IMG/VR virus record: IMGVR_UViG_2740892015_000011
Span: 1 to 44,382 of that record
Source of the DNA: a virus
Lineage: Duplodnaviria > Heunggongvirae > Uroviricota > Caudoviricetes
Length of the DNA stretch: 44,382 nucleotides
Direction: 5' to 3' (one strand)
Numbering within the stretch: position 1 is the first letter of the stretch; every line of letters begins with the position of its first letter. The position numbers and the translations under genes were made by a program. This document shows positions 23,322-32,789 of the stretch, piece by piece. The notes below the pieces were generated by a model that worked only from the letters and a program-made list of their open reading frames with translations, made no database searches and was not told the DNA's origin.

Positions 23322-23839
23322 GCCAGCGCGCTTTCCTGGTCACGCCGCTCTATCTGACCGTAGCAGCCATTCTTCTGGCCTTTGGTCAGACGGCAGTCAC
23401 GCCCACCGTCTTTAATCCACCAGCGGATGGCCTCACAAGCTCCTTTCCGGTCACCAGCATTGATGCGCTGGTAGAATGTCGATGGATAGCATTTCCCTGG
23501 GCCAATGTTGTACGGGCAGAAGGATGCAATGCCTACCTTTTGCGGCGCTGTCAGTGGGACCTTGATATTCCGATCTACCCAGGCAAGCGCTTTGTCACGC
23601 TCAATCGCGTTCACTTTCTTGCATTGCGCCTCGGTGGTGGTCATGTCTTTTACAACACGTTTGCCATCGATAACTGTAACGCCATGGCAAAGCGACCAGA
23701 CGCCACCTGGATCCATGACAGCCACAAGAGCGTTGCCCTCCTTCTCACTGATGAATTGATCGAACAGTACAGGAGCTGAAGCACCAGCGGCGATCAGGGA
23801 TAGCATGGCTGCGCTGAGTTTGGTTTTTGTAGATGCCAT
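23300..23839 (-). CDS. SAR endolysin (phage-21 R-type lysozyme)
   Basis: N-terminal signal-anchor LSAAMLSLIAAGASAPVL; ...GDRKGACEAIRWW... resembles P21 R (GDIKGACDQLRRW). Confidence 0.75.
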   Translation of the reverse strand: MASTKTKLSAAMLSLIAAGASAPVLFDQFISEKEGNALVAVMDPGGVWSLCHGVTVIDGKRVVKDMTTTEAQCKKVNAIERDKALAWVDRNIKVPLTAPQKVGIASFCPYNIGPGKCYPSTFYQRINAGDRKGACEAIRWWIKDGGRDCRLTKGQKNGCYGQIERRDQESALACWGIDQ

Positions 23840-24090
23840 TACTCACGCTCCGTAACGACAGCTTTACCGTGATTTGCAGCTTTCTCAATTGCGCGGGTCT
23901 GACGCCTCTGGAAATACAGGTTCGTAAAATACGTAGCAATGCCAATCACGATACCGCTGATGACGGCTACCTTGTTCCAGTCAAGCTTGTACAGCCAGTC
24001 ATATACACGAAACAGCCCGGTACAAATAAGACCGCCTGACGTGCAATACGAGGCTGCAGAAAAAATTTTCTCAGGCATGATTCTATGCAT
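23839..24090 (-). CDS. Class II holin / pinholin (phage-21 S-like) with dual-start motif
   Basis: ORF track 23839..24240; real start at internal MHRIMPEK (Met codons at 24090 and 24078); ...GIVIGIATYFTNLYFQRR resembles S21 ...GFLTYLTNLYFK; ATGA overlap with the endolysin. Confidence 0.65.
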   Translation of the reverse strand: MHRIMPEKIFSAASYCTSGGLICTGLFRVYDWLYKLDWNKVAVISGIVIGIATYFTNLYFQRRQTRAIEKAANHGKAVVTERE

Positions 24091-24154
24091 TCCACACCTC
24101 CGGTCTCGGGGTGTTATTGAGGTAATAAAAAAGGCCGCTATCGCGACCTCACGT

Positions 24155-25207
24155 TTATTCCCCTGCCAACGCCCGTATTTCCCCCAACGTCTGATTAAAC
24201 CTTTCCTCTTCGAGTTCAACGCCAATAGCCTGGCGGCCAAGTTCCAGCGCGACTTTCACGGTCGAACCGGACCCCATAAAGAAATCAGCCACCACATCAC
24301 CAGGCTTACTGCTGGCGTTGATGATCTGCCGCAACATGTCAGCGGGTTTTTCGCATGGGTGTTTACCTGGGTAAAACTGAACGGGTTTATGTGTCCAGAC
24401 GTCGGTATAAGGAACGGATACGGAAACAGAGAAATGCCGCCGAAGTGATTTGTACTCTTCGAGCAGCTCTGAATATTTGCGATTCAACGAATGCCACAGA
24501 GCCACCAGCTGGTGGTGTGGTGTTGCCAGTTCGCCGTTCTGGTGTTTTTCGATGGCTACCTGCGTGAAAAGGGACTGAAGATTCCGGTAGTCTGATTCAT
24601 TCGGTAATTGCCACTGGCTACCGCTGAACCAGTGAGACACCATGTTCTTCTTTCCAGTCGCATCGGCTATTTGTTTTGAGGTTATGCCAAGCGCTTCACG
24701 TGCATCCCGGAAATAAGAAATTAGGGGAGTCATTACATGCTGCTTCAGCTCGCTTCCCTTCTCAGCGTACCCGTCGCTCTTTGGTTTATACGGCCCCTGG
24801 TAATGCTCAGCGAACAGGATGCGCTCTGTTGCAGGGAAGTAAGAGCGCAGGCTCTCTTTATTACAGCCATTCCAGCGGCCCGACGGTTTAGCCCAGATGA
24901 TGTGGTTCAGGACGTTGAACCGCTCACGCATCATGATCTCAATGTCTGCCGCCAGACGGTGACCTGAGAAAAGATAAAGACTGCCGGCAGGTTTAAGCAC
25001 TCGCCAGAATTGTGCGAGGCACATATCAAGCCAGCGAAGATAATCCTCATCCCCTTTCCATTGATTGTCCCAGCCGTTGGGTTTCACTTTGAAGTAAGGC
25101 GGATCCGTGACTATCAGGTCAATGGAGTTATCAGGGAGAGTTGCGATGTATTGCAGGCTATCAGCGTTGACTAACTCAACACTGTTTATAATTACAGTAT
25201 TTTTCAT
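24155..25207 (-). CDS. DNA methyltransferase, amino-methyltransferase beta class (N6-adenine or N4-cytosine), orphan
   Basis: DPPY motif near the N-terminus (LIVTDPPYF) and motif I near the C-terminus (DFFMGSGST); no adjacent restriction gene. Confidence 0.75.
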   Translation of the reverse strand: MKNTVIINSVELVNADSLQYIATLPDNSIDLIVTDPPYFKVKPNGWDNQWKGDEDYLRWLDMCLAQFWRVLKPAGSLYLFSGHRLAADIEIMMRERFNVLNHIIWAKPSGRWNGCNKESLRSYFPATERILFAEHYQGPYKPKSDGYAEKGSELKQHVMTPLISYFRDAREALGITSKQIADATGKKNMVSHWFSGSQWQLPNESDYRNLQSLFTQVAIEKHQNGELATPHHQLVALWHSLNRKYSELLEEYKSLRRHFSVSVSVPYTDVWTHKPVQFYPGKHPCEKPADMLRQIINASSKPGDVVADFFMGSGSTVKVALELGRQAIGVELEEERFNQTLGEIRALAGE

Positions 25208-25373
25208 AGATCAGTAAGCGTAACTCTGATAGGCTCACTATGCTTTTGCGCTAAAGCGGTGGGCCTTGGTTAGCTTGTGACCTGAAAGCATGAGCTGATG
25301 GCTGGTGGGTGCTCCAACATCCACCAGCCGCCCATTTTCACAGCAAAATACCTCCGAAATGGAGGTGCGAAGG

Positions 25374-25400
25374 CATAAAAAAACCCCGCTTAAGCGAGGT
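25374..25400 (-). terminator. Rho-independent terminator downstream of the two-gene cassette
   Basis: Minus strand reads CCTCGC-TTAA-GCGGGG followed by TTTTTTT. Confidence 0.45.
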
Positions 25401-25416
25401 TATTTCGAATAGATAA

Positions 25417-25821
25417 TCAAGCAGCAGGTTCGGATGGATAAACCTGCTTATACATCTGCTGAAGGGTGTCAATAGCTTTGTTAGCCATTATCAATATAGC
25501 TTCCGCATCAGCCTTACTTAAAGTTCTATCAAGCTCGTAATCTGCCCATTTACGTCGGATATGCAAATGTCTCAGCATTGTTCCCATAGAAATGAGTTTC
25601 ATTTTTTCAAACGGCTCATTTCCTTTTAACCATGCATCATTTGTAAGATAGTCGCGAACAGCTTGGTGTGACGACTTGTTTGGGCATTTCTCAAGCTTAT
25701 CAAGCGTTTCATGATAAACTCCATAATACGCTCGACCAATGGCGTTTCTGTAACCGATTTCATCGTTGTGAGAAATGCATTTACCAGCAAAAACAATAAA
25801 ATCTTTCCCCGATACGCTCAT
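25417..25821 (-). CDS. Unknown protein B of AT-rich cargo cassette (134 aa)
   Basis: Start ATG overlaps the stop of gene A (TGATG); contains RAYYGVYH, which fits the Rx4-6H pattern of HEPN nucleases only at its upper limit (Rx6H) and at an unusual N-terminal position (not verified); AT-rich. Confidence 0.5.
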   Translation of the reverse strand: MSVSGKDFIVFAGKCISHNDEIGYRNAIGRAYYGVYHETLDKLEKCPNKSSHQAVRDYLTNDAWLKGNEPFEKMKLISMGTMLRHLHIRRKWADYELDRTLSKADAEAILIMANKAIDTLQQMYKQVYPSEPAA

Positions 25822-26576
25822 CAGTAAATCCCTCTTTTTTCATCGCTTTGGAACCAGGATGTAAAAGGGCTGTTCCGATAACTATCATCTGAGAGCAAAA
25901 CCAACAGTTCCATGTTCATTTCAGCTAAAACCTGCGGATCAGCAGTTTGGGCTCTAACGATGAATGCATTGTCATCATCTCCACCAAGATAATAGCTAAC
26001 ACTTGAACAGTTAATACCGCGCTTGTTCGCAATCTCTTCAGCTTGATCGCAAAGGGCTTCTAGTTCTCGAGAAGAAAGACGGGTAGCGTTTTTGAAATCA
26101 ACAATCTGTTCAGCCATATAATTTCCCTGATTGATTATATCCTCTCGCTCTTGGCCATCATAAAGAGCAGCCATTTTGAGGGAGAACTTTTTAACCAACT
26201 TGTCGTTGCCGATACAAAATGCAGCGTTTCTTGCTACAAGCCTCAGTTCATGTGAAGGGAAAAGCTCAACTATTCTAAACAACTCAACGCGATGCTCATA
26301 GTTATGAGCCGAACGAGAAAGATACGCCAAGTAGTTTTGTGCGATCGTTGGACTCCCAGAGCTCATCGCGTCTTTGAATAAACGTACTGCATCAGAGTGA
26401 CGCCCGAGAGTTCCATTAAGCCATGCATACGCATGTGCGCGCTCACTTATTGGAAGTTTAGCAATGTCGTGCTCAATTTCCGCAATAGTGTCTGTATCCG
26501 GGACTTCTCCCTTCTGGAAGTAATCGAGGATTGTTGCAAGCAGTTCTTGTTCTTTTGACTCAGGCTGTCCTGACAT
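25821..26576 (-). CDS. Unknown protein A of AT-rich cargo cassette (about 251 aa)
   Basis: ORF track start at 26597 is a TTG; first ATG (MSGQPESKEQ...) at 26576; no recognisable catalytic motif; translationally coupled to gene B. Confidence 0.5.
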   Translation of the reverse strand: MSGQPESKEQELLATILDYFQKGEVPDTDTIAEIEHDIAKLPISERAHAYAWLNGTLGRHSDAVRLFKDAMSSGSPTIAQNYLAYLSRSAHNYEHRVELFRIVELFPSHELRLVARNAAFCIGNDKLVKKFSLKMAALYDGQEREDIINQGNYMAEQIVDFKNATRLSSRELEALCDQAEEIANKRGINCSSVSYYLGGDDDNAFIVRAQTADPQVLAEMNMELLVLLSDDSYRNSPFTSWFQSDEKRGIY

Positions 26577-26919
26577 AATTTTCCCGAAGAAAACCAAATT
26601 CTGTATGTTTTCAATAGCTTCACTGGATAGGTTTTTATATTGCTGTCATCAGTATTGAAGCTTTTACGGGATTGTACAGGACCATCAGCGTTCTACTTGT
26701 GCATAAGAATTTAATAAACCTACAGACTTATCCACAGAAAAAAGAGTTATCAACAAAAAAAGTTATTCACAACTTAACTAATAGCAAAATATTGTTGATA
26801 AGCTGTGCGTAATTATCATATCCATCAAACTTACGCACATTAGAGCCTTGTGTTGCCTATCCATCGTTTTTTCCTATCAAAACGAAACAACATGCTTTTC
26901 TGCGATTAAAAAAGTATTC

Positions 26920-26953
26920 CGCAAAATTAAAAAACCCGCTCACTGGCGGGTTT
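26920..26953 (-). terminator. tR'-like rho-independent terminator downstream of the Q-like gene
   Basis: Minus strand reads CCCGCC-AGTGA-GCGGG followed by TTTTTTAATTTT, about 90 bp downstream of the Q-like stop. Confidence 0.5.
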
Positions 26954-27045
26954 ATATACTTTTGGCAACATATCAAATTAGCTTCAAATATCGCTTATTT
27001 TGTTGCATTTTGCAAGCCTGATTGAAGACGTTAGTGAAATTTACT

Positions 27046-27759
27046 TCACATTTCTACCACTTTAACTTCCTCATACTCTTCGTACCGCGCCAGGCTTTCA
27101 CATAACGCCAGGCTGTCCATTTCCACGAAAGCTGCTTTAAATGCTGCCCAGTGAGCAGCGTATACCCTAAGCCAGGTTGAACGCTCCACGCTCACCATGC
27201 GGGCCAGTGCCGCCCCCGCATACTCCTGGTACGTATCGTTATTGCGTGATGCAGCAACTTCCTGGGCCGCGAGCCAAACCAGCCCCACTAATTTTTTTGT
27301 GACTCTGTCCTGGAGCTTCTTACTCCCCTGCTGATGCTGAAACTGTGCCCAAACGTACTGGCACATTAAGGTCTGGTACCGGAAAGACAGATCATATCCA
27401 TAGCAATACCGAACCCACGCCTGCAGATGCTCTCCAAGTCCATTCACCGAGCGGCGCCACGCAGAACTCGCAAACTCGGCATCCTTCATAGGGGGTAATG
27501 GGCGTCTACGGCTTCTTGTCTCCAGAACATAAAGCGGAGTGGCCAGCGTTTTTACAACCTTCGCTCCACAACATTCCCCACCCTCCATGACTATTTCTGG
27601 ATGGTGCCGGGGATACTTATTTTTATCTGCTGGTGGATGCTCACTGAACGCCTGCAGCTGTCCCTTCGTCGATCCTGAGAAATCGGCCAGCGCGCGGCGC
27701 AATTCAATACGGGTATATTCGAGTTCTTGTAAATTCATAATGCTCAGCGCTCCATACAA
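27046..27759 (-). CDS. Late-gene antitermination protein Q candidate
   Basis: 237 aa, last regulatory-region gene before the terminator and lysis genes; assignment is positional. Confidence 0.4.
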   Translation of the reverse strand: MYGALSIMNLQELEYTRIELRRALADFSGSTKGQLQAFSEHPPADKNKYPRHHPEIVMEGGECCGAKVVKTLATPLYVLETRSRRRPLPPMKDAEFASSAWRRSVNGLGEHLQAWVRYCYGYDLSFRYQTLMCQYVWAQFQHQQGSKKLQDRVTKKLVGLVWLAAQEVAASRNNDTYQEYAGAALARMVSVERSTWLRVYAAHWAAFKAAFVEMDSLALCESLARYEEYEEVKVVEM

Positions 27760-28821
27760 TTACGCTTTTGTTATTACGCCGATCGCCAACGCTCGATTCA
27801 TAAACCGGAACAGCAGCTCCAGCTGAGTACCGTGTTTTTTCTCAAACGCTGCTAAATCGGCATGTAGTTTGTCGTGACACTCTCTGCACAGAGGGAACAC
27901 GAACAAATCATGTGCTTTTGTGGCGGTACCGCCCATACCGTGACCAATGACATGGTGTGGATCATCCGCTGGCCGCCGGCAACCTTCACACGGCTGGGTT
28001 TTAACCCACCGGGTATAATCCTCATTCACCCACCGACGATGTTTCGGACGTAACATGAATGATTCAGGAGATTCTGGATCCGCATGCAGAGCCAGAATCT
28101 TTGGCTGGTCGTAGACCACTTCCTGATTTGCTCCATGCTTTAATTTCGCAGCCGTGGCCGCAGGGGTGACCTTCTTCTGCAAAATGCTTTTTGCCGGGGG
28201 CATCGGCACAATGTCACTTTCACGATAAACGGATAAAAAAGGCTCATCCGGCATGCGGAGTGCGCGTTGTGCCATCCTTTCTGTGATTGCATCAGCAATG
28301 CCCGAGTAAACGGCCCACCAGCACAATTCGCCGAGGGATAGTTCGCGCTCGGTGTTGTAGCCAAGCGCAGACAGGATCGAATTGATCAGCCAGTTGATGA
28401 GATTTCGCCGGGCCAGTTCTGCCAGCGCCGCGGTGGTCTGCTCGCGCAGCTGGTTATCGCAATGCCAGCAGAGCAGCATTGACCCTGGAGGGTGGCGCAT
28501 TGTTACCAGCTCGCGGTGGTGATAGTCAGCGTGCGGGTACTGGCATTCCTTAACGTTGCGCTCTAACCATGAGTCCAACGCGGATAAACCGCCTGCGGCG
28601 CGGATAACCCTCTCGTCGGAGAAGAATTCCTCGAGGGACTTATCTTCTGCCAGCGGCTGCCTCGCATCAGGGACGAGCCCCGACGGAAGCCCAGCCATAC
28701 TTTTTGGCTGAGGCTCCACCAGCACACGCCCCTGCTGGAACAGTGACATCAGATCGCTACCTGGCTTTAACAACACAAGCCCCAGGCGCGGAACAGTCTC
28801 GGCTGTAAACAGTCCTCTCAC
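27760..28821 (-). CDS. Nin-region protein with C-terminal HNH / zinc-finger motif
   Basis: C-terminal CEGCRRPADDPHHVIGHGMGG...CRECHDKLH. Confidence 0.5.
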   Translation of the reverse strand: MRGLFTAETVPRLGLVLLKPGSDLMSLFQQGRVLVEPQPKSMAGLPSGLVPDARQPLAEDKSLEEFFSDERVIRAAGGLSALDSWLERNVKECQYPHADYHHRELVTMRHPPGSMLLCWHCDNQLREQTTAALAELARRNLINWLINSILSALGYNTERELSLGELCWWAVYSGIADAITERMAQRALRMPDEPFLSVYRESDIVPMPPAKSILQKKVTPAATAAKLKHGANQEVVYDQPKILALHADPESPESFMLRPKHRRWVNEDYTRWVKTQPCEGCRRPADDPHHVIGHGMGGTATKAHDLFVFPLCRECHDKLHADLAAFEKKHGTQLELLFRFMNRALAIGVITKA

Positions 28822-29524: not shown

Positions 29525-31462
29525 TCAGGCGGCTGCACCCGCCTTTTGATTTGCACATAATTCAGGAAGATTTGCTTCTACCAGCGCACGAGCGAACGGC
29601 GGCGGTACTGCGTTACCACAGCGCGCTACCTGCTTGTCTTTGGCGTAACGATTGCCGCGATAGTCCTGATCGATAACGTAGCCGTCAGGGAAGCCCTGCG
29701 CCTTATAAAGCTCATGCGGTTGCAGCATGCGCATTCCGATATCGACGATCTGGTACTTAACCCCCTCGATCGTCACCAGCCATTCATCCTCGCTATCACC
29801 GCAGTAGGTTTCGAGGAATGTCCGGACCTCGCCAACGTGCTGGCCACCAGCGGTAATAGTCGGCATAGGTGTATCCATGGTCTGACCGTCGCGGCAGGTT
29901 CCGCGTAGCTTCACCAGGTGCGACGCAACTACCGCGTGGTGATCAACAGTAGTGACTGAGTGGGCAGGCTCATCCATACCAACACCCGGCCCCGTGTAAT
30001 TCCCACCATAGTGCTTCGCCAGGAACGCGCTCACCGTTGCAAACTTATTACCACCAGCAGTGACCGTGCCGAGCGGGTTATTCAGTTGAATAACACGCGG
30101 TTCTTGCCCTGGGCGTTCGCCGTACCCCATCTGGATCAGTGTTGGAGTTACCAGCTGCGACTTACCGCCACCACCAGCAGTAATCGTCGCGCTCGGTTCG
30201 TCAGCCCTGTGCCCAACACTGGCGCCAAACTGGCGGGCGATGACCGGAGCAACAACGCACGCGCGGGACTGCTTGAGGATTGTATGAGCGGGTTTATCCA
30301 GCGGGCGCGGCTTTGCCTGGTACTCACTGCCGCCATTGCCAGCCAGGAACGGTGTCAGGGCGGCCTCAACTACGCCAAGCGCATGCCCATTCCCGCCTGG
30401 GCGCGCCGACGTACCAGCGGTGACAGTTGGAACCGGCTCGGTCACTGGCTGCCCGGTGGCCCCGGTGCGGAATTTAGTAAGATGCGGTACCGCCAGCGCG
30501 TAGCCATGCTTTTTAGTGATGGTCTGCAATGGCTCTAACAACGATTGCCCGCGGAAACAGTCATAACCTCCTTTCGTCGTGGTGTGGTTACACTTCACGA
30601 TGAAAGGTGATGCACTTTCGATAACAAAGCGCTGGATGCCGCGCGCGATACGTTTGAGCGTATTTTCCGCCAGCGGCTTTTTGCGGTCGAAGATGGAACG
30701 GGCCGGGATGTTCCAGTCAATGCACTCCGCCGCGGTACGCCATGGCGCCAGCTTGCCGCTTTGTACTTCCAGTGATTTTGGATCCCCATGAGTCGCTTCA
30801 GGCCAATGAATCTTGCGGCCGTCACAACGCATGACCATGAAGAAACGCTTTCTGATCGTCGGCGCGCCGTAGTCACAAGCGCGCAGCTCACGATAATCGA
30901 CCTCATAGCCAAGCCCGGCGATCAGCTGTTGCGCCTGCTGGCCGTGCGGCTCAATGGCAAGAAATTCACAAACCTCAGCCAGTGCTGGGTGATTCGCCGC
31001 GATACCAGTCGACAGCATGCCGACAAATGCCTCAAATGTTTCACCAGCACGCTCAGGATCCGGGCGTAATTCTTCATCCAGCAGCGGGCCCCATGTCTTA
31101 AATTCTTCGACGTTCTCCAGCATCATGACGCGGGGACGTACTGACAGCGCCCAGCGCAGGACAATCCACGCCAGCCCGCGAATCTCTTTCTTAACCGGCT
31201 TAGCGCCCTTCGCTTTGGAAAAGTGGCGGCAGTCAGGGCTAAACCAGGCCAGACCAACAGGTTTACCGCTGGTGGCTGCACTTGGGTCAACGTCAAACAC
31301 CGACTCGCAATAATGCAGCGTGTCCGGGTGATTCGTCTTATGCATCGCAATAGCGTTTTCGTCGTGGTTGATAGCGATATCCACGCTACGCCCGATCGCC
31401 AGTTCAATGCCGGTACTCGCGCCACCACCACCAGCAAAGTTATCAACGATAATTTCACGCAT
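29525..31462 (-). CDS. DNA (cytosine-5) methyltransferase, large phage-type
   Basis: Motif I IVDNFAGGGGASTG, catalytic FSPDCRHFSKAKG (Pro-Cys), ENV motif MMLENVEEF; probable start MREIIVDNF... (ORF track extends to 31516). Confidence 0.8.
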   Translation of the reverse strand: MREIIVDNFAGGGGASTGIELAIGRSVDIAINHDENAIAMHKTNHPDTLHYCESVFDVDPSAATSGKPVGLAWFSPDCRHFSKAKGAKPVKKEIRGLAWIVLRWALSVRPRVMMLENVEEFKTWGPLLDEELRPDPERAGETFEAFVGMLSTGIAANHPALAEVCEFLAIEPHGQQAQQLIAGLGYEVDYRELRACDYGAPTIRKRFFMVMRCDGRKIHWPEATHGDPKSLEVQSGKLAPWRTAAECIDWNIPARSIFDRKKPLAENTLKRIARGIQRFVIESASPFIVKCNHTTTKGGYDCFRGQSLLEPLQTITKKHGYALAVPHLTKFRTGATGQPVTEPVPTVTAGTSARPGGNGHALGVVEAALTPFLAGNGGSEYQAKPRPLDKPAHTILKQSRACVVAPVIARQFGASVGHRADEPSATITAGGGGKSQLVTPTLIQMGYGERPGQEPRVIQLNNPLGTVTAGGNKFATVSAFLAKHYGGNYTGPGVGMDEPAHSVTTVDHHAVVASHLVKLRGTCRDGQTMDTPMPTITAGGQHVGEVRTFLETYCGDSEDEWLVTIEGVKYQIVDIGMRMLQPHELYKAQGFPDGYVIDQDYRGNRYAKDKQVARCGNAVPPPFARALVEANLPELCANQKAGAAA

Positions 31463-32789
31463 TGACGGCCCCCTGCATGCTGTTGAAGAGACCACCAGCG
31501 GTCGTGATAATTTCACTCGTCGGCATACGTTCGAGCCACAGCTGGTTGATATTGGCTTTCAGCTTGTTCTGTTGTGAAACAGGTAGAGCGTCAGCACCTT
31601 CAATCTGGTTAAACACCAGGCCAACCTCAAGAGGCCAAACGCGCGATTCGTTTAACGCCTTGTCCTTTGATTCCTGCGTCTCACGTACATGAGCGCGGAT
31701 CCCCCGAATATTTGACCATTTGGCTTTATCCAGGCTTTCCATGGTCGCGATGAATTCACTGTGGTTGATGCCGTATTCTTTCGCAGATTCAACGGCAACC
31801 GTGCGAAGCCGCTCTGACATGTCTTGTTTCACGTCATCGCTATCAAAGGGCAATGTTTCCAGCCATGCATTAACACCCACCAGGATGCTCTCGCTGATCA
31901 GCTTTTTCGCTCTATCGATCGTCAGCGGTGAAACATTGGTAAATTCAGGGTTTTCCAGAGAGTCGGCAGCCCAGGTATGACCAAACTTTGACTCGCTGAA
32001 GGTGTACTCATCTTTCTCGCCGAACGCCGCGACAACACAGGCCCAAGCTTCTACACCACTGGTTTCCAGAATGGCTTTTTGGGTTAATGGCAGTTCTGCC
32101 TCTGATTTCTCCGGCACTACCTCAGCGTCCAGCTCCGGCGCCGCATCAGTTTGCGTTCTTCCCACGGCAAACTGGGCCAGCGACATCGAAGCACGGCCTT
32201 TGGCCTCCAGGTCGGTGCGGTTGATGTAACTGAAACGTTCACCCCGCCATGTTTTGTCGAAGACCACGATAGCGCCAGCAAAAAATGCGCTGGTTGGCTG
32301 CTGCTTTTCGTCTTTCGGCACGAACCATGTAGGAAGATCGAAACCAATTCGGCCACGGATGAATGTGACGTGATCTGCTTCTTCCGGCCACCACGTCTCA
32401 CTCGTCGCAGACTTAATGAGAAAAACGTACCGCCCCCCCTTTTCTCGCATTGCCATAGCGTGGTTAATGATGTGGGTCATTCCGGTAATGGCCTGCTTGT
32501 CGTGATACTGAGAGCGGCTGTAAGGCGGGTTGCCAAACCCGGCACCACCGAGTTCTGCCAGACGCTCAGACCAATCCTGTGTCAGGGCATTATCTTCAGC
32601 CGTGTACCATGCTGGGCACTTCGCGTTGCTGTCGTCGGCAAAAAGGTCCAACACCAGAGGGCCGAACATCGCATTGATACCCCAAAACAACAGATCCGGA
32701 GTGCGCCATTGATCGCCGACCTCTTTCAACTCGTGGGCTGGTCTTGAACGCAGTTCAACCAGCGCACGGCAGTATTTGCTTTCAATCAT
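31455..32789 (-). CDS. Phage Dam-like N6-adenine methyltransferase domain fused to a ~260-aa C-terminal domain of unknown function
   Basis: N-terminal WRTPDLLFWG, DLFADD and GFGNPPYSRS (NPPY) motifs; remainder unrecognised. Confidence 0.6.
   Translation of the reverse strand: MIESKYCRALVELRSRPAHELKEVGDQWRTPDLLFWGINAMFGPLVLDLFADDSNAKCPAWYTAEDNALTQDWSERLAELGGAGFGNPPYSRSQYHDKQAITGMTHIINHAMAMREKGGRYVFLIKSATSETWWPEEADHVTFIRGRIGFDLPTWFVPKDEKQQPTSAFFAGAIVVFDKTWRGERFSYINRTDLEAKGRASMSLAQFAVGRTQTDAAPELDAEVVPEKSEAELPLTQKAILETSGVEAWACVVAAFGEKDEYTFSESKFGHTWAADSLENPEFTNVSPLTIDRAKKLISESILVGVNAWLETLPFDSDDVKQDMSERLRTVAVESAKEYGINHSEFIATMESLDKAKWSNIRGIRAHVRETQESKDKALNESRVWPLEVGLVFNQIEGADALPVSQQNKLKANINQLWLERMPTSEIITTAGGLFNSMQGAVNA

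What the first reader, a model, noticed from the sequence alone, without database searches (positions are those of the whole stretch)
25374..26953. AT-rich, terminator-bracketed two-gene cassette of unrecognised function in the Q-to-lysis cargo hotspot
Genes A (about 251 aa) and B (134 aa) are translationally coupled (stop and start share TGATG), visibly more AT-rich than the flanking phage genes, and enclosed between a tR'-like terminator (about 26920..26953) and their own terminator (25374..25400). This is the late-operon position where lambdoid phages carry lysogenic-conversion or anti-phage cargo. Neither protein matches a family I recognise. Protein B contains RAYYGVYH, which fits the HEPN Rx4-6H pattern only at its upper limit and in an atypical N-terminal position, so an RNase or abortive-infection role is a guess. 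Toxin-antitoxin or superinfection exclusion are equally possible.
Basis: partly seen in the sequence, partly recalled or inferred. Interest (0 to 1): 0.75.

Follow-up and report, generated by a model that had tools for sequence, protein, structure and literature searches.

The report
Prophage cargo: TPR protein plus HEPN nuclease
A 1.56-kb AT-rich insert just after the phage late-gene switch carries two always-linked genes, a repeat-containing partner protein and a small HEPN-type predicted RNase, which look like an uncharacterised toxin-antitoxin or anti-phage module.

Summary
On the minus strand, gene A (26576-25821, 251 aa) and gene B (25821-25417, 134 aa) overlap in TGATG. GC is 40% against 51.5% for the window, and a terminator sits on each side. 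Phage Flotzy has the same flanks with only 54 bp between them, so 25366-26925 is a discrete insert.

A is a TPR array plus a small alpha/beta domain resembling the RimP N-domain. It has no nucleotidyltransferase features.

All 51 fetched loci with a B-like gene (40 distinct pairs, B identity down to 23%) have an A-like gene directly upstream. The pair sits in many accessory positions of prophages and islands.

The best reading is a mobile two-gene HEPN toxin/abortive-infection module, with A as neutraliser and possibly sensor. Function is inferred, not shown. It matches no PADLOC system. I rate it a new variant of a known kind.

The parts
26932..26953 (-). tR'-like intrinsic terminator directly downstream of Q. 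It marks the upstream edge of the insert.
   Evidence: 8-bp stem (5 G-C pairs) followed by a T run. Homology to the empty-site phage Flotzy ends at 26926, just after the T run. In a second context (L002, tRNA-Thr plus another antiterminator type) a different hairpin precedes the same junction sequence.
26577..26931 (-). 355-bp AT-rich (32.7% GC) non-coding leader of the cassette, the presumed regulatory region. It holds an inverted repeat (26804-26839), a cluster of five DnaA-box-like sites (26698-26801) and a conserved block (26651-26679).
   Evidence: About 60% of positions are identical to the Enterobacter version, with perfectly conserved blocks, although synonymous sites of A and B are saturated. 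That points to constraint on the non-coding DNA. Its function is inferred.
26698..26801 (.). Cluster of five sites within one mismatch of the DnaA box TTATCCACA: 26698-26706, 26728-26736 (perfect), 26747-26755, 26763-26771, 26793-26801.
   Evidence: 5 of the window's 18 matches fall in 104 bp; 5 found against about 0.1 expected in the 330-bp upstream stretch. Three to five boxes are kept in the close clade (L002, L010, L021), and none upstream of most distant A-B pairs. DnaA binding was not tested.
26651..26679 (-). 29-nt block CTGTACAATCCCGTAAAAGCTTCAATACT, identical in the E. coli and Enterobacter cassettes. It is a candidate for the cassette's own promoter (-35 TGTACA, 16 bp, -10 AATACT; or -10 TACAAT).
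   Evidence: These are weak consensus matches, and the stricter scan found no minus-strand promoter. Inferred only.
25821..26576 (-). Gene A, 251 aa. Residues ~8-136 form a TPR-like array of eight helices. Residues ~141-244 form a small alpha/beta domain (alpha-alpha-beta-beta-alpha-beta). It is the predicted partner (neutraliser and/or sensor) of B.
25417..25821 (-). Gene B, 134 aa. A minimal HEPN domain of the AF0298/UPF0332 (HEPN-T) type and the predicted RNase effector or toxin. E21, R25, R30, Y32, Y33, H37, H52, R90, D94 and Y95 are invariant.
25382..25401 (-). The cassette's own intrinsic terminator, 16 nt after B's stop codon.
   Evidence: 8-bp stem (5 G-C pairs) followed by TTTTTTT. 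It lies inside the insert, since homology to Flotzy resumes at 25365.
25366..26925 (.). Extent of the inserted module (1560 bp) relative to the empty site in phage Flotzy.
   Evidence: The sequence after the cassette's terminator (GGGGTTTTTTTATGCC) resembles the sequence after Flotzy's tR' (GGGTTTTTTTATGGC). This suggests the exchange took place at terminator sequences.

Best explanation
The region is a self-contained, horizontally mobile two-gene module (a 'moron') inserted just after the late terminator tR' of a lambdoid prophage.

Gene B encodes a minimal HEPN domain of the AF0298/UPF0332 type. I predict it is a dimeric RNase that uses the variant active site of that group: R90 at the end of helix 3, plus the alternative His H52. 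The invariant helix-2 residues (E21, R25, R30, H37) would line the same cleft.

Gene A is translated first and is coupled to B. It encodes a non-enzymatic TPR protein with a small alpha/beta domain. It occupies the place that the MNT antitoxin holds in classical HEPN-MNT modules. I propose that A binds B and holds it inactive. Loss of A, or its engagement by a trigger such as a protein of an infecting phage bound by the TPR array, would free B to cut RNA and stop growth. That is a toxin-antitoxin-like abortive-infection or exclusion module serving the lysogen.

It is probably transcribed in the lysogen from a promoter in its conserved 355-bp leader. During lytic growth it would also be read through from pR' by Q-modified polymerase.

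Shown here: gene structure, insert boundaries, the HEPN-T fold and residue pattern, the TPR fold, strict A-B linkage, and mobility among accessory sites.

Inferred: RNase activity, neutralisation by A, the trigger, the promoter, and any anti-phage effect.
For: B is HEPN-T:
- The profile hits a solved HEPN protein at E 3.6e-5, with H52, R90 and D94-Y95 aligned to His, Arg and Asp-Tyr of the chain.
- 8 of 23 homologues hit PF05168.
- The R / D-for-H / alternative-His pattern is the one published for AF0298-like HEPN-T and AbiV (PMC3710099).
- These residues are invariant in 40 distinct homologues, down to 23% identity.

Some HEPN toxins are experimentally rRNA-cleaving RNases: AbiV (bioRxiv 10.1101/2024.05.05.592566) and Legionella HEPN (PMC11586414).

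Obligate pair: 51 of 51 loci with a B-like gene have an A-like gene immediately upstream on the same strand, abutting or overlapping. Pairwise identities of A and B correlate at r = 0.93.

A looks non-enzymatic and evolves faster than B. No column is invariant across the 65-member family. pN is 0.128 for A against 0.066 for B. A identities are 12-26% where B is 36-48%. That is the pattern expected of an antitoxin or sensor rather than an enzyme.

Mobile accessory cargo:
- An empty site exists in phage Flotzy.
- The cassette is in only 12 of 5426 complete E. coli genomes, behind two different antiterminator types.
- The pair occurs between Q and the lysis genes (window, Morganella, L022, L047), between terminase and portal (L044), in the nin region (L038), next to integrases (L006, L050), next to UmuC and a likely tail-fibre gene (L023), in an islet after smpB with an Abi_2 protein (L030), and in core-gene contexts in Gilliamella and a Thiotrichaceae MAG.

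Gene order (partner first, overlapping the toxin) matches the antitoxin-then-toxin rule that Anantharaman et al. cite for MNT-HEPN modules.
Against: No experiment exists. RNase activity, toxicity of B, neutralisation by A and phage resistance are all untested.

The canonical Rx4-6H histidine is absent, and some HEPN-T proteins are non-catalytic binding domains (PMC3710099).

The window's own B protein scores below every Pfam threshold, with no hit at E <= 1. The PF05168 link rests on homologues, profiles and a predicted structure.

No known defence family matches. PADLOC gives only a weak PDC-M05B hit for B (E 0.009) and nothing for A.

A is twice the size of B and has no DNA-binding domain, unlike classical type II antitoxins.

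No convincing sigma-70 promoter was found on the coding strand, so expression in the lysogen is not established.

The accessions were not found in the held text of the DefensePredictor supplement, some files of which were cut when stored.
Confidence: 0.55

Rival explanations
1. It is a plain addiction (toxin-antitoxin) module. It stabilises the prophage or island that carries it and has no role against other phages.
For: It shares the architecture of the best explanation: the partner gene comes first and overlaps the HEPN gene. Linkage is strict. The pair occurs in tiny islets between core genes in Gilliamella and a Thiotrichaceae MAG, where no other defence gene is seen.
Against: Most copies found sit in prophage accessory slots, and one sits beside an Abi_2 gene. 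A carries a large TPR array, which is a typical ligand- or protein-binding module and is not needed for simple neutralisation. The two roles are not mutually exclusive.
Confidence: 0.2
2. B is a non-catalytic HEPN domain. The A-B pair would then be a binding or regulatory complex, for example an RNA- or ribosome-binding adaptor that modulates host or phage gene expression, and not a toxin system.
For: The canonical His of Rx4-6H is missing. Anantharaman et al. note that several HEPN families, especially those associated with nucleotidyltransferases, are inactive binding domains. A's C-terminal domain resembles the N-domain of the ribosome maturation factor RimP and ribosomal protein eS7.
Against: R90, D94, Y95 and the alternative H52 are invariant across 40 distinct homologues down to 23% identity. 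This is the pattern proposed to form an alternative active site in AF0298-like HEPN and AbiV, and AbiV is an RNase. The mobile, patchy distribution fits a conflict system better than a housekeeping regulator.
Confidence: 0.15
3. The pair serves the phage's own lytic cycle. It would be a late-expressed RNase plus chaperone that degrades host RNA or shuts off host translation.
For: In the window it is the first unit downstream of pR'/tR', so Q-modified polymerase should read through it late in infection. This follows from its position and from lambda biology. The Morganella prophages have it only 150 bp after Q.
Against: The closely related phage Flotzy lacks it. The pair is found at unrelated positions (terminase-portal, nin region, next to integrase) and in non-phage chromosomal contexts. 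It carries its own terminator and a conserved leader.
Confidence: 0.07
4. It is a classical type VII HEPN-MNT system in which A is a very divergent nucleotidyltransferase that AMPylates Y95 of B.
For: B is closest to MNT-associated HEPN-T proteins. It keeps an invariant Tyr next to the motif (Y95), the position AMPylated in HepT-type toxins. The solved homologue pair 9xbd/9xbc differs by Tyr to Phe at that position.
Confidence: 0.03

Closest known systems
AF0298 / UPF0332-type minimal HEPN proteins (HEPN-T clade, Pfam PF05168; PDB 2hsb, 1ufb, 1wol, 9xbd)
   Different: Those proteins are typically paired with, or fused to, a minimal nucleotidyltransferase (MNT). B is always paired with a 250-aa TPR plus alpha/beta-domain protein. 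Sequence similarity is low: 19% identity, and the window protein itself misses the Pfam threshold.
HepT-MntA (HEPN-MNT) type VII toxin-antitoxin systems
   Same: Both are two-gene operons with the partner gene first and the HEPN toxin second. Both have a conserved Tyr next to the motif.
   Different: The neutraliser there is an enzyme that oligo-AMPylates the toxin. A has no nucleotidyltransferase features. HepT proteins belong to DUF86 and carry a canonical Rx4H, which B lacks.
AbiV of Lactococcus (HEPN abortive-infection RNase)
   Same: Anantharaman et al. group AbiV with AF0298-like HEPN because of the alternative His. It is an anti-phage toxin that degrades rRNA. An AbiV structure appears among the weak Foldseek hits.
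   Different: AbiV is about 200 aa. According to the 2024 preprint, it is neutralised by an RNA antitoxin (type III), not by a TPR protein. There is no detectable sequence similarity to B.
Prophage-encoded single-protein HEPN defences: HepS (Gifsy-1, Salmonella) and Tha (S. aureus prophages)
   Different: They are single larger proteins with built-in sensing and belong to different HEPN families. Here the putative sensing or neutralising part is a separate gene.
HEPN families with TPR or Sel1 partners noted computationally (LA2681 family; AbiU2 with a Sel1-repeat gene)
   Same: They set a precedent for HEPN genes in operons with TPR-like repeat proteins (PMC3710099, Table 1).
   Different: Those HEPN families keep the canonical Rx4-6H and are different clades. 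None is reported with the TPR plus RimP-like architecture. Membership was not testable here because no sequences were available.
PADLOC candidate PDC-M05, and DefensePredictor DS-28 (HEPN plus a 252-aa partner)
   Same: B and some relatives give weak hits to PDC-M05B (E 0.009 to 1e-4). DS-28 is a validated E. coli two-gene system with a small HEPN protein and a partner of about 250 aa.
   Different: The hits cover only the C-terminal third and fall far short of family level, and A matches no PDC-M05 component. DS-28 has the opposite gene order, a canonical RNSVAH motif and, by inspection of its sequence, a partner that does not look like a TPR protein; no alignment to A was run.

Membership tests
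HEPN superfamily | All-alpha up-down helical bundle with the HEPN topology | tested here: met
HEPN superfamily | Canonical Rx4-6H motif at the end of helix 3 | tested here: not met
At that position B has R90-K-W-A-D94-Y95 with no His.
AF0298-like HEPN-T (PF05168) variant | Arg of the motif is kept, Asp replaces the His, and a second strongly conserved His lies in the insert between helices 2 and 3 (Anantharaman et al. 2013) | tested here: met
   R90, D94 and H52 are invariant in 40 distinct homologues. H52 lies at the start of the short helix 52-62, between helix 2 (21-42) and helix 3 (73-95). These residues align with His, Arg and Asp-Tyr of PDB 9xbd. The definition is from PMC3710099.
AF0298-like HEPN-T (PF05168) variant | Significant match to the Pfam PF05168 profile | tested here: inconclusive
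   The window protein has no hit at E <= 1. 8 of 23 homologues hit PF05168, best E 1.5e-5. One homologue carries a precomputed PF05168 call. The family profile against PDB HEPN gives E 3.6e-5.
HEPN ribonuclease toxins | RNA cleavage and growth arrest that depend on the active-site residues | not testable with these tools
   This needs expression and RNase assays.
Type VII HEPN-MNT toxin-antitoxin | An adjacent minimal nucleotidyltransferase (MNT, PF01909-like) that modifies the toxin | tested here: not met
Type VII HEPN-MNT toxin-antitoxin | A conserved Tyr next to the motif that accepts AMP | tested here: inconclusive
   Y95 is invariant and aligns with the Tyr of 9xbd, which is Phe in 9xbc. 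With no MNT present, its role is unknown.
Type II-like toxin-antitoxin operon | Two small co-transcribed genes with the neutraliser first, overlapping or abutting the toxin gene | tested here: met
   TGATG overlap. The same arrangement is seen in 51 of 51 loci. A is atypically large (251 aa) and lacks a DNA-binding domain.
TPR repeat proteins (for A) | Tandem helix-turn-helix repeats matching TPR profiles or structures | tested here: met
Phage 'moron' (autonomous cargo unit) | An insert between two genes that are adjacent in a related phage, with deviant base composition, its own terminator and its own promoter | tested here: inconclusive
   Insert versus Flotzy: met. Composition: met. Terminator: met. 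Promoter: only weak candidates within a conserved block.
Known anti-phage defence systems (PADLOC-DB v2.0.0) | Family-level match of the components to a catalogued system | tested here: not met
   A has no hit. B has only PDC-M05B at E 0.009. The wider A family gives scattered single chance-level hits. Distant B relatives reach at best E 1.4e-4 to PDC-M05B or HEPN_IX.

The most novel reading that the evidence does not exclude
The A-B pair is a new family of two-component abortive-infection systems. The fast-evolving TPR array of A would directly recognise a protein of an infecting phage. A's RimP-like alpha/beta domain would either clamp the HEPN dimer or take it to the ribosome. Release would let the variant-site HEPN (R90/H52) cut rRNA or tRNA. 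In the E. coli/Enterobacter clade, expression would additionally be wired to the host replication initiator through a conserved cluster of DnaA boxes in the leader, linking the level of immunity to DnaA availability.
Probability: 0.25. Interest if true: 0.7.

Novelty: new variant of a known kind. Interest (0 to 1): 0.5.

Why it matters
HEPN RNases are among the commonest effectors in bacterial conflict systems, and what distinguishes the systems is how each HEPN is kept silent and what releases it. Here a minimal HEPN of the MNT-associated clade has exchanged its enzyme antitoxin for a non-enzymatic TPR protein. The pair has stayed together across Enterobacterales, Gilliamella, Pseudomonas-like and Thiotrichales sequences while moving among prophage cargo slots.

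If it is active, three things follow:
- It would add a defence or toxin-antitoxin family that PADLOC-DB v2.0.0, the one defence catalogue tested here, does not detect.
- It would give a tractable E. coli example for testing the proposed alternative HEPN active site (Arg plus a distal His).
- It would show a different, probably stoichiometric or sensor-based, way of controlling an HEPN-T toxin.

It also gives a clean example of terminator-to-terminator moron insertion, with an available empty-site phage for comparison.

Tried and rejected
- Direct family scans of the two window proteins gave nothing usable. Pfam and NCBIfam had no significant hits, PHROGs gave only unknown-function families, and PADLOC gave one weak hit.
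- Single-sequence searches against PDB sequences gave only chance hits.
- A as a divergent nucleotidyltransferase: rejected.
- Identity with DefensePredictor systems: the accessions are absent from the stored supplement text. DS-28 has a different gene order, motif and partner.
- A scan of genome contigs with the A profiles failed. One alignment was too divergent and the other gave no confirmed loci. The B profile worked.
- The AFDB Foldseek library was unavailable, so A's C-terminal domain was compared only with solved structures.
- A conserved leader RNA or promoter element shared by distant cassettes: the alignment of upstream regions showed none.
- Rfam: nothing at gathering thresholds. 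The sub-threshold hits only reflect the terminators.
- No tRNA in the window.
- No copy of A on plasmids.
- A literature search for PDB 9xbd found nothing relevant.
Full report
**1. What is in the sequence**

Two minus-strand ORFs fill the region.
- Gene A runs 26576..25821. It is 251 aa from the ATG used by RefSeq and by all homologues. The open frame extends to a TTG at 26597.
- Gene B runs 25821..25417 (134 aa).
- A's TGA and B's ATG overlap by one base (TGATG). A GAGGG Shine-Dalgarno for B lies inside the end of A.

The insert is 40.4% GC against 51.5% for the window. That puts it in the lowest 0.5% of all 1560-bp windows. Third-codon-position GC is 0.36-0.39, against 0.54-0.59 in the neighbouring phage genes.

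Terminator-like hairpins with T runs lie at 26953..26932 and 25401..25382 on the coding strand. The region holds 8 such sites against 1.5 expected.

Upstream are a DUF968 gene and a Q antiterminator (PF06323, E 1e-39). Downstream are an N6/N4 DNA methyltransferase, a P21-type holin, a lysozyme and an Rz-like gene.

**2. It is a discrete insert**

Escherichia phage Flotzy matches the window at 96-97% identity on both sides (24014-25365 and 26926-28000). Only 54 bp lie between the flanks there. The inserted unit is therefore 25366-26925, running from just after the T run of tR' to just after the cassette's own terminator. The bases following the two terminators are alike (GGGTTTTTTTATGGC in Flotzy, GGGGTTTTTTTATGCC in the window). 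This suggests the exchange happened at terminator sequences.

The cassette is rare. It is in 12 of 5426 complete E. coli genomes, always chromosomal, and behind two different antiterminator types. A-like genes were not found on plasmids.

Both genes are under strong purifying selection. Against the Enterobacter version, pS is 0.73-0.78 (saturated), while pN is 0.13 for A and 0.07 for B.

**3.

The window protein alone has no Pfam hit. The evidence comes from its relatives and its predicted structure:
- One of its 22 database relatives carries a PF05168 call.
- 8 of 23 family members hit PF05168, best E 1.5e-5.
- A profile of the family hits the solved 'HEPN domain-containing protein' 9xbd at E 3.6e-5, and more weakly AF0298 (2hsb).

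Anantharaman et al. 2013 state that the Rx4-6H motif sits at the end of helix 3. They also state that AF0298-like HEPN-T proteins and AbiV usually lack the His there (Asp replaces it). These proteins instead have a second strongly conserved His in the insert between helices 2 and 3, which could form an alternative active site with the retained Arg (PMC3710099).

B fits this description. R90-KWA-D94-Y95 closes helix 3 (73-95), and H52 opens the short helix between helix 2 (21-42) and helix 3. R90, D94, Y95 and H52 are invariant in 40 distinct homologues, down to 23% identity.

The solved HEPN protein 9xbd has AMSRAYYAMFY at the aligned position. R30 and H37 are invariant too, together with E21, R25, Y32 and Y33. 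In the Legionella HEPN toxin the working active site turned out to lie on helix 2 (PMC11586414). These residues may therefore line the same cleft, and only mutagenesis can assign roles. I could not measure distances because model coordinates are not exposed.

**4. Protein A**

A has no annotated relatives. PHROGs places it in phrog_17809, of unknown function. An exhaustive profile search found 71 clusters at 50% identity, nearly all full-length at 250-260 aa.

No column is invariant across the family, and there is no nucleotidyltransferase fold or motif. A therefore looks like a binding protein, not an enzyme. No PADLOC family matches it.

**5. The two genes are an obligate, mobile pair**

Every fetched locus with a B-like gene has an A-like gene immediately upstream on the same strand, abutting or overlapping. 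That is 51 of 51 loci and 40 distinct pairs. A deposited Klebsiella phage shows the same arrangement. A Pseudomonas phage has a B-like gene after a 264-aa partner that the A profile does not recognise.

A diverges about twice as fast as B.

The pair occupies many different slots:

| Context | Loci |
|---|---|
| Between Q and the lysis genes | window, Enterobacter, Morganella, L022, L047 |
| Between terminase and portal | L044 |
| In the nin region | L038 |
| Beside integrases | L006, L050 |
| Near UmuC and a likely tail-fibre gene | L023 |
| Islet after smpB, with an SRAP and an Abi_2 protein | L030 |
| Between core genes in Gilliamella (frr / MFS transporter) | L004 |
| After prfB in a Thiotrichaceae MAG | L008 |

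This patchy, context-independent distribution is typical of selfish or defence cargo. It argues against a role in the phage's own cycle.

**6. Mechanism proposed**

B is most likely an RNase toxin or effector using the AF0298/AbiV-type variant site. AbiV and Legionella HEPN are HEPN toxins that cut rRNA in vitro. A is made first and is translationally coupled to B. It stands where the MNT antitoxin stands in HEPN-MNT modules. I infer that it neutralises B by binding, and that its fast-evolving TPR array may also act as the sensor that releases B on infection. None of this is shown here.

The rivals are a pure addiction module, a non-catalytic HEPN regulatory complex, a phage-cycle function, and a cryptic MNT. 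They are scored in the report sections.

**7. Regulation**

The 355-bp leader (32.7% GC) is more conserved between the E. coli and Enterobacter versions than the genes' synonymous sites are. It contains:
- a perfectly conserved 29-nt block (26651-26679) with weak promoter-like hexamers;
- five DnaA-box-like sites within 104 bp (26698-26801), against about 0.1 expected. Three to five are kept in the close clade, and none occur upstream of most distant pairs;
- an inverted repeat at 26804-26839.

The stricter promoter scan found nothing on the coding strand, so expression in the lysogen is not established. Q-dependent read-through from pR' is expected from the position.

**8. Comparison with known systems and novelty**

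B is a member of the HEPN superfamily by fold, and it fits the AF0298-like HEPN-T variant. The module is not a HEPN-MNT system, because it has no MNT. It is not AbiV, which differs in size and has an RNA antitoxin. It is not a HepS/Tha-type single protein. It is not DefensePredictor DS-28 and not a PADLOC system. TPR or Sel1 partners of other HEPN clades have been noted only computationally.

I found no paper describing this pair. I therefore rate it a new variant of a known kind. It is a good candidate for experiment, of moderate interest, and its function is unproven.

Noticed in passing
window 26698-26801: Five DnaA-box-like sites (at most one mismatch to TTATCCACA, one of them perfect) lie within 104 bp upstream of gene A, against about 0.1 expected. 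Three to five are conserved in the Enterobacter and L021 versions, although synonymous sites are saturated. They are absent upstream of most distant A-B pairs.
   Followed up: partly
window 26804-26839: An inverted repeat TGTGCGTAA...TTACGCACA (16-nt arms, 4 nt apart) lies upstream of the DnaA-box cluster. Its outer arms are kept in the Enterobacter cassette. It may be an operator.
   Followed up: no
window 25366-25401 and 26926-26953; L003 4060-4130: The bases just after the cassette's terminator (GGGGTTTTTTTATGCC) resemble those just after tR' in the empty-site phage Flotzy (GGGTTTTTTTATGGC). It looks as if the module was exchanged by recombination at terminator sequences. Flotzy has an annotated 50-aa ORF starting about 120 bp downstream of Q.
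   Followed up: partly
window 24155-25207: An N6/N4 DNA methyltransferase (PF01555, E 1e-43, with a weak internal HTH_3 hit) sits in the late operon between the cassette and the holin. It is present in Flotzy without the cassette and absent from the Morganella prophages that have the cassette, so it is an independent cargo gene.
   Followed up: partly
window 29525-31516, and further upstream by synteny with L001 and L009: A 663-aa ORF with a cytosine-C5 methyltransferase-like N-terminus (FAGGGG) lies upstream. The syntenic genes in L001 and L009 are annotated as a DNA cytosine methyltransferase (PF00145) followed by a Dam-type N6-adenine methyltransferase. With the late-operon methylase, this prophage type carries three DNA methyltransferases.
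   Followed up: no
window 23839-24240: The mechanical ORF for the holin is 133 aa from a TTG. The P21-holin Pfam match covers only residues 57-118, and related loci annotate 71-100 aa. The real start is probably internal.
   Followed up: no
L002 7706-7780, beside the cassette at L002 6118-7277: In a second group of E. coli prophages the same cassette, methylase and lysis block follows a tRNA-Thr gene and a different antiterminator family. The block therefore recombines as a unit between lambdoid backbones.
   Followed up: partly
L053 3501-3896 (Klebsiella phage ST405-OXA48phi1.3, MK416008): An intact 131-aa B-like HEPN ORF (motif RNEADYH) is annotated in GenBank as two small hypothetical CDSs. 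It follows a 245-aa A-like gene and lies just upstream of the tape-measure gene.
   Followed up: partly
L030 2742-5597: One A-B pair lies in an islet downstream of a gene that looks like smpB, together with an SOS-response-associated peptidase (SRAP) and an Abi_2 (Abi-like) protein. This is the only neighbourhood seen with another recognisable abortive-infection gene.
   Followed up: partly
window 25300-25329 and 25350-25366: Two further GC-rich hairpins lie in the shared flank between the cassette and the methylase gene, and both are also present in Flotzy. Their role is unknown.
   Followed up: no
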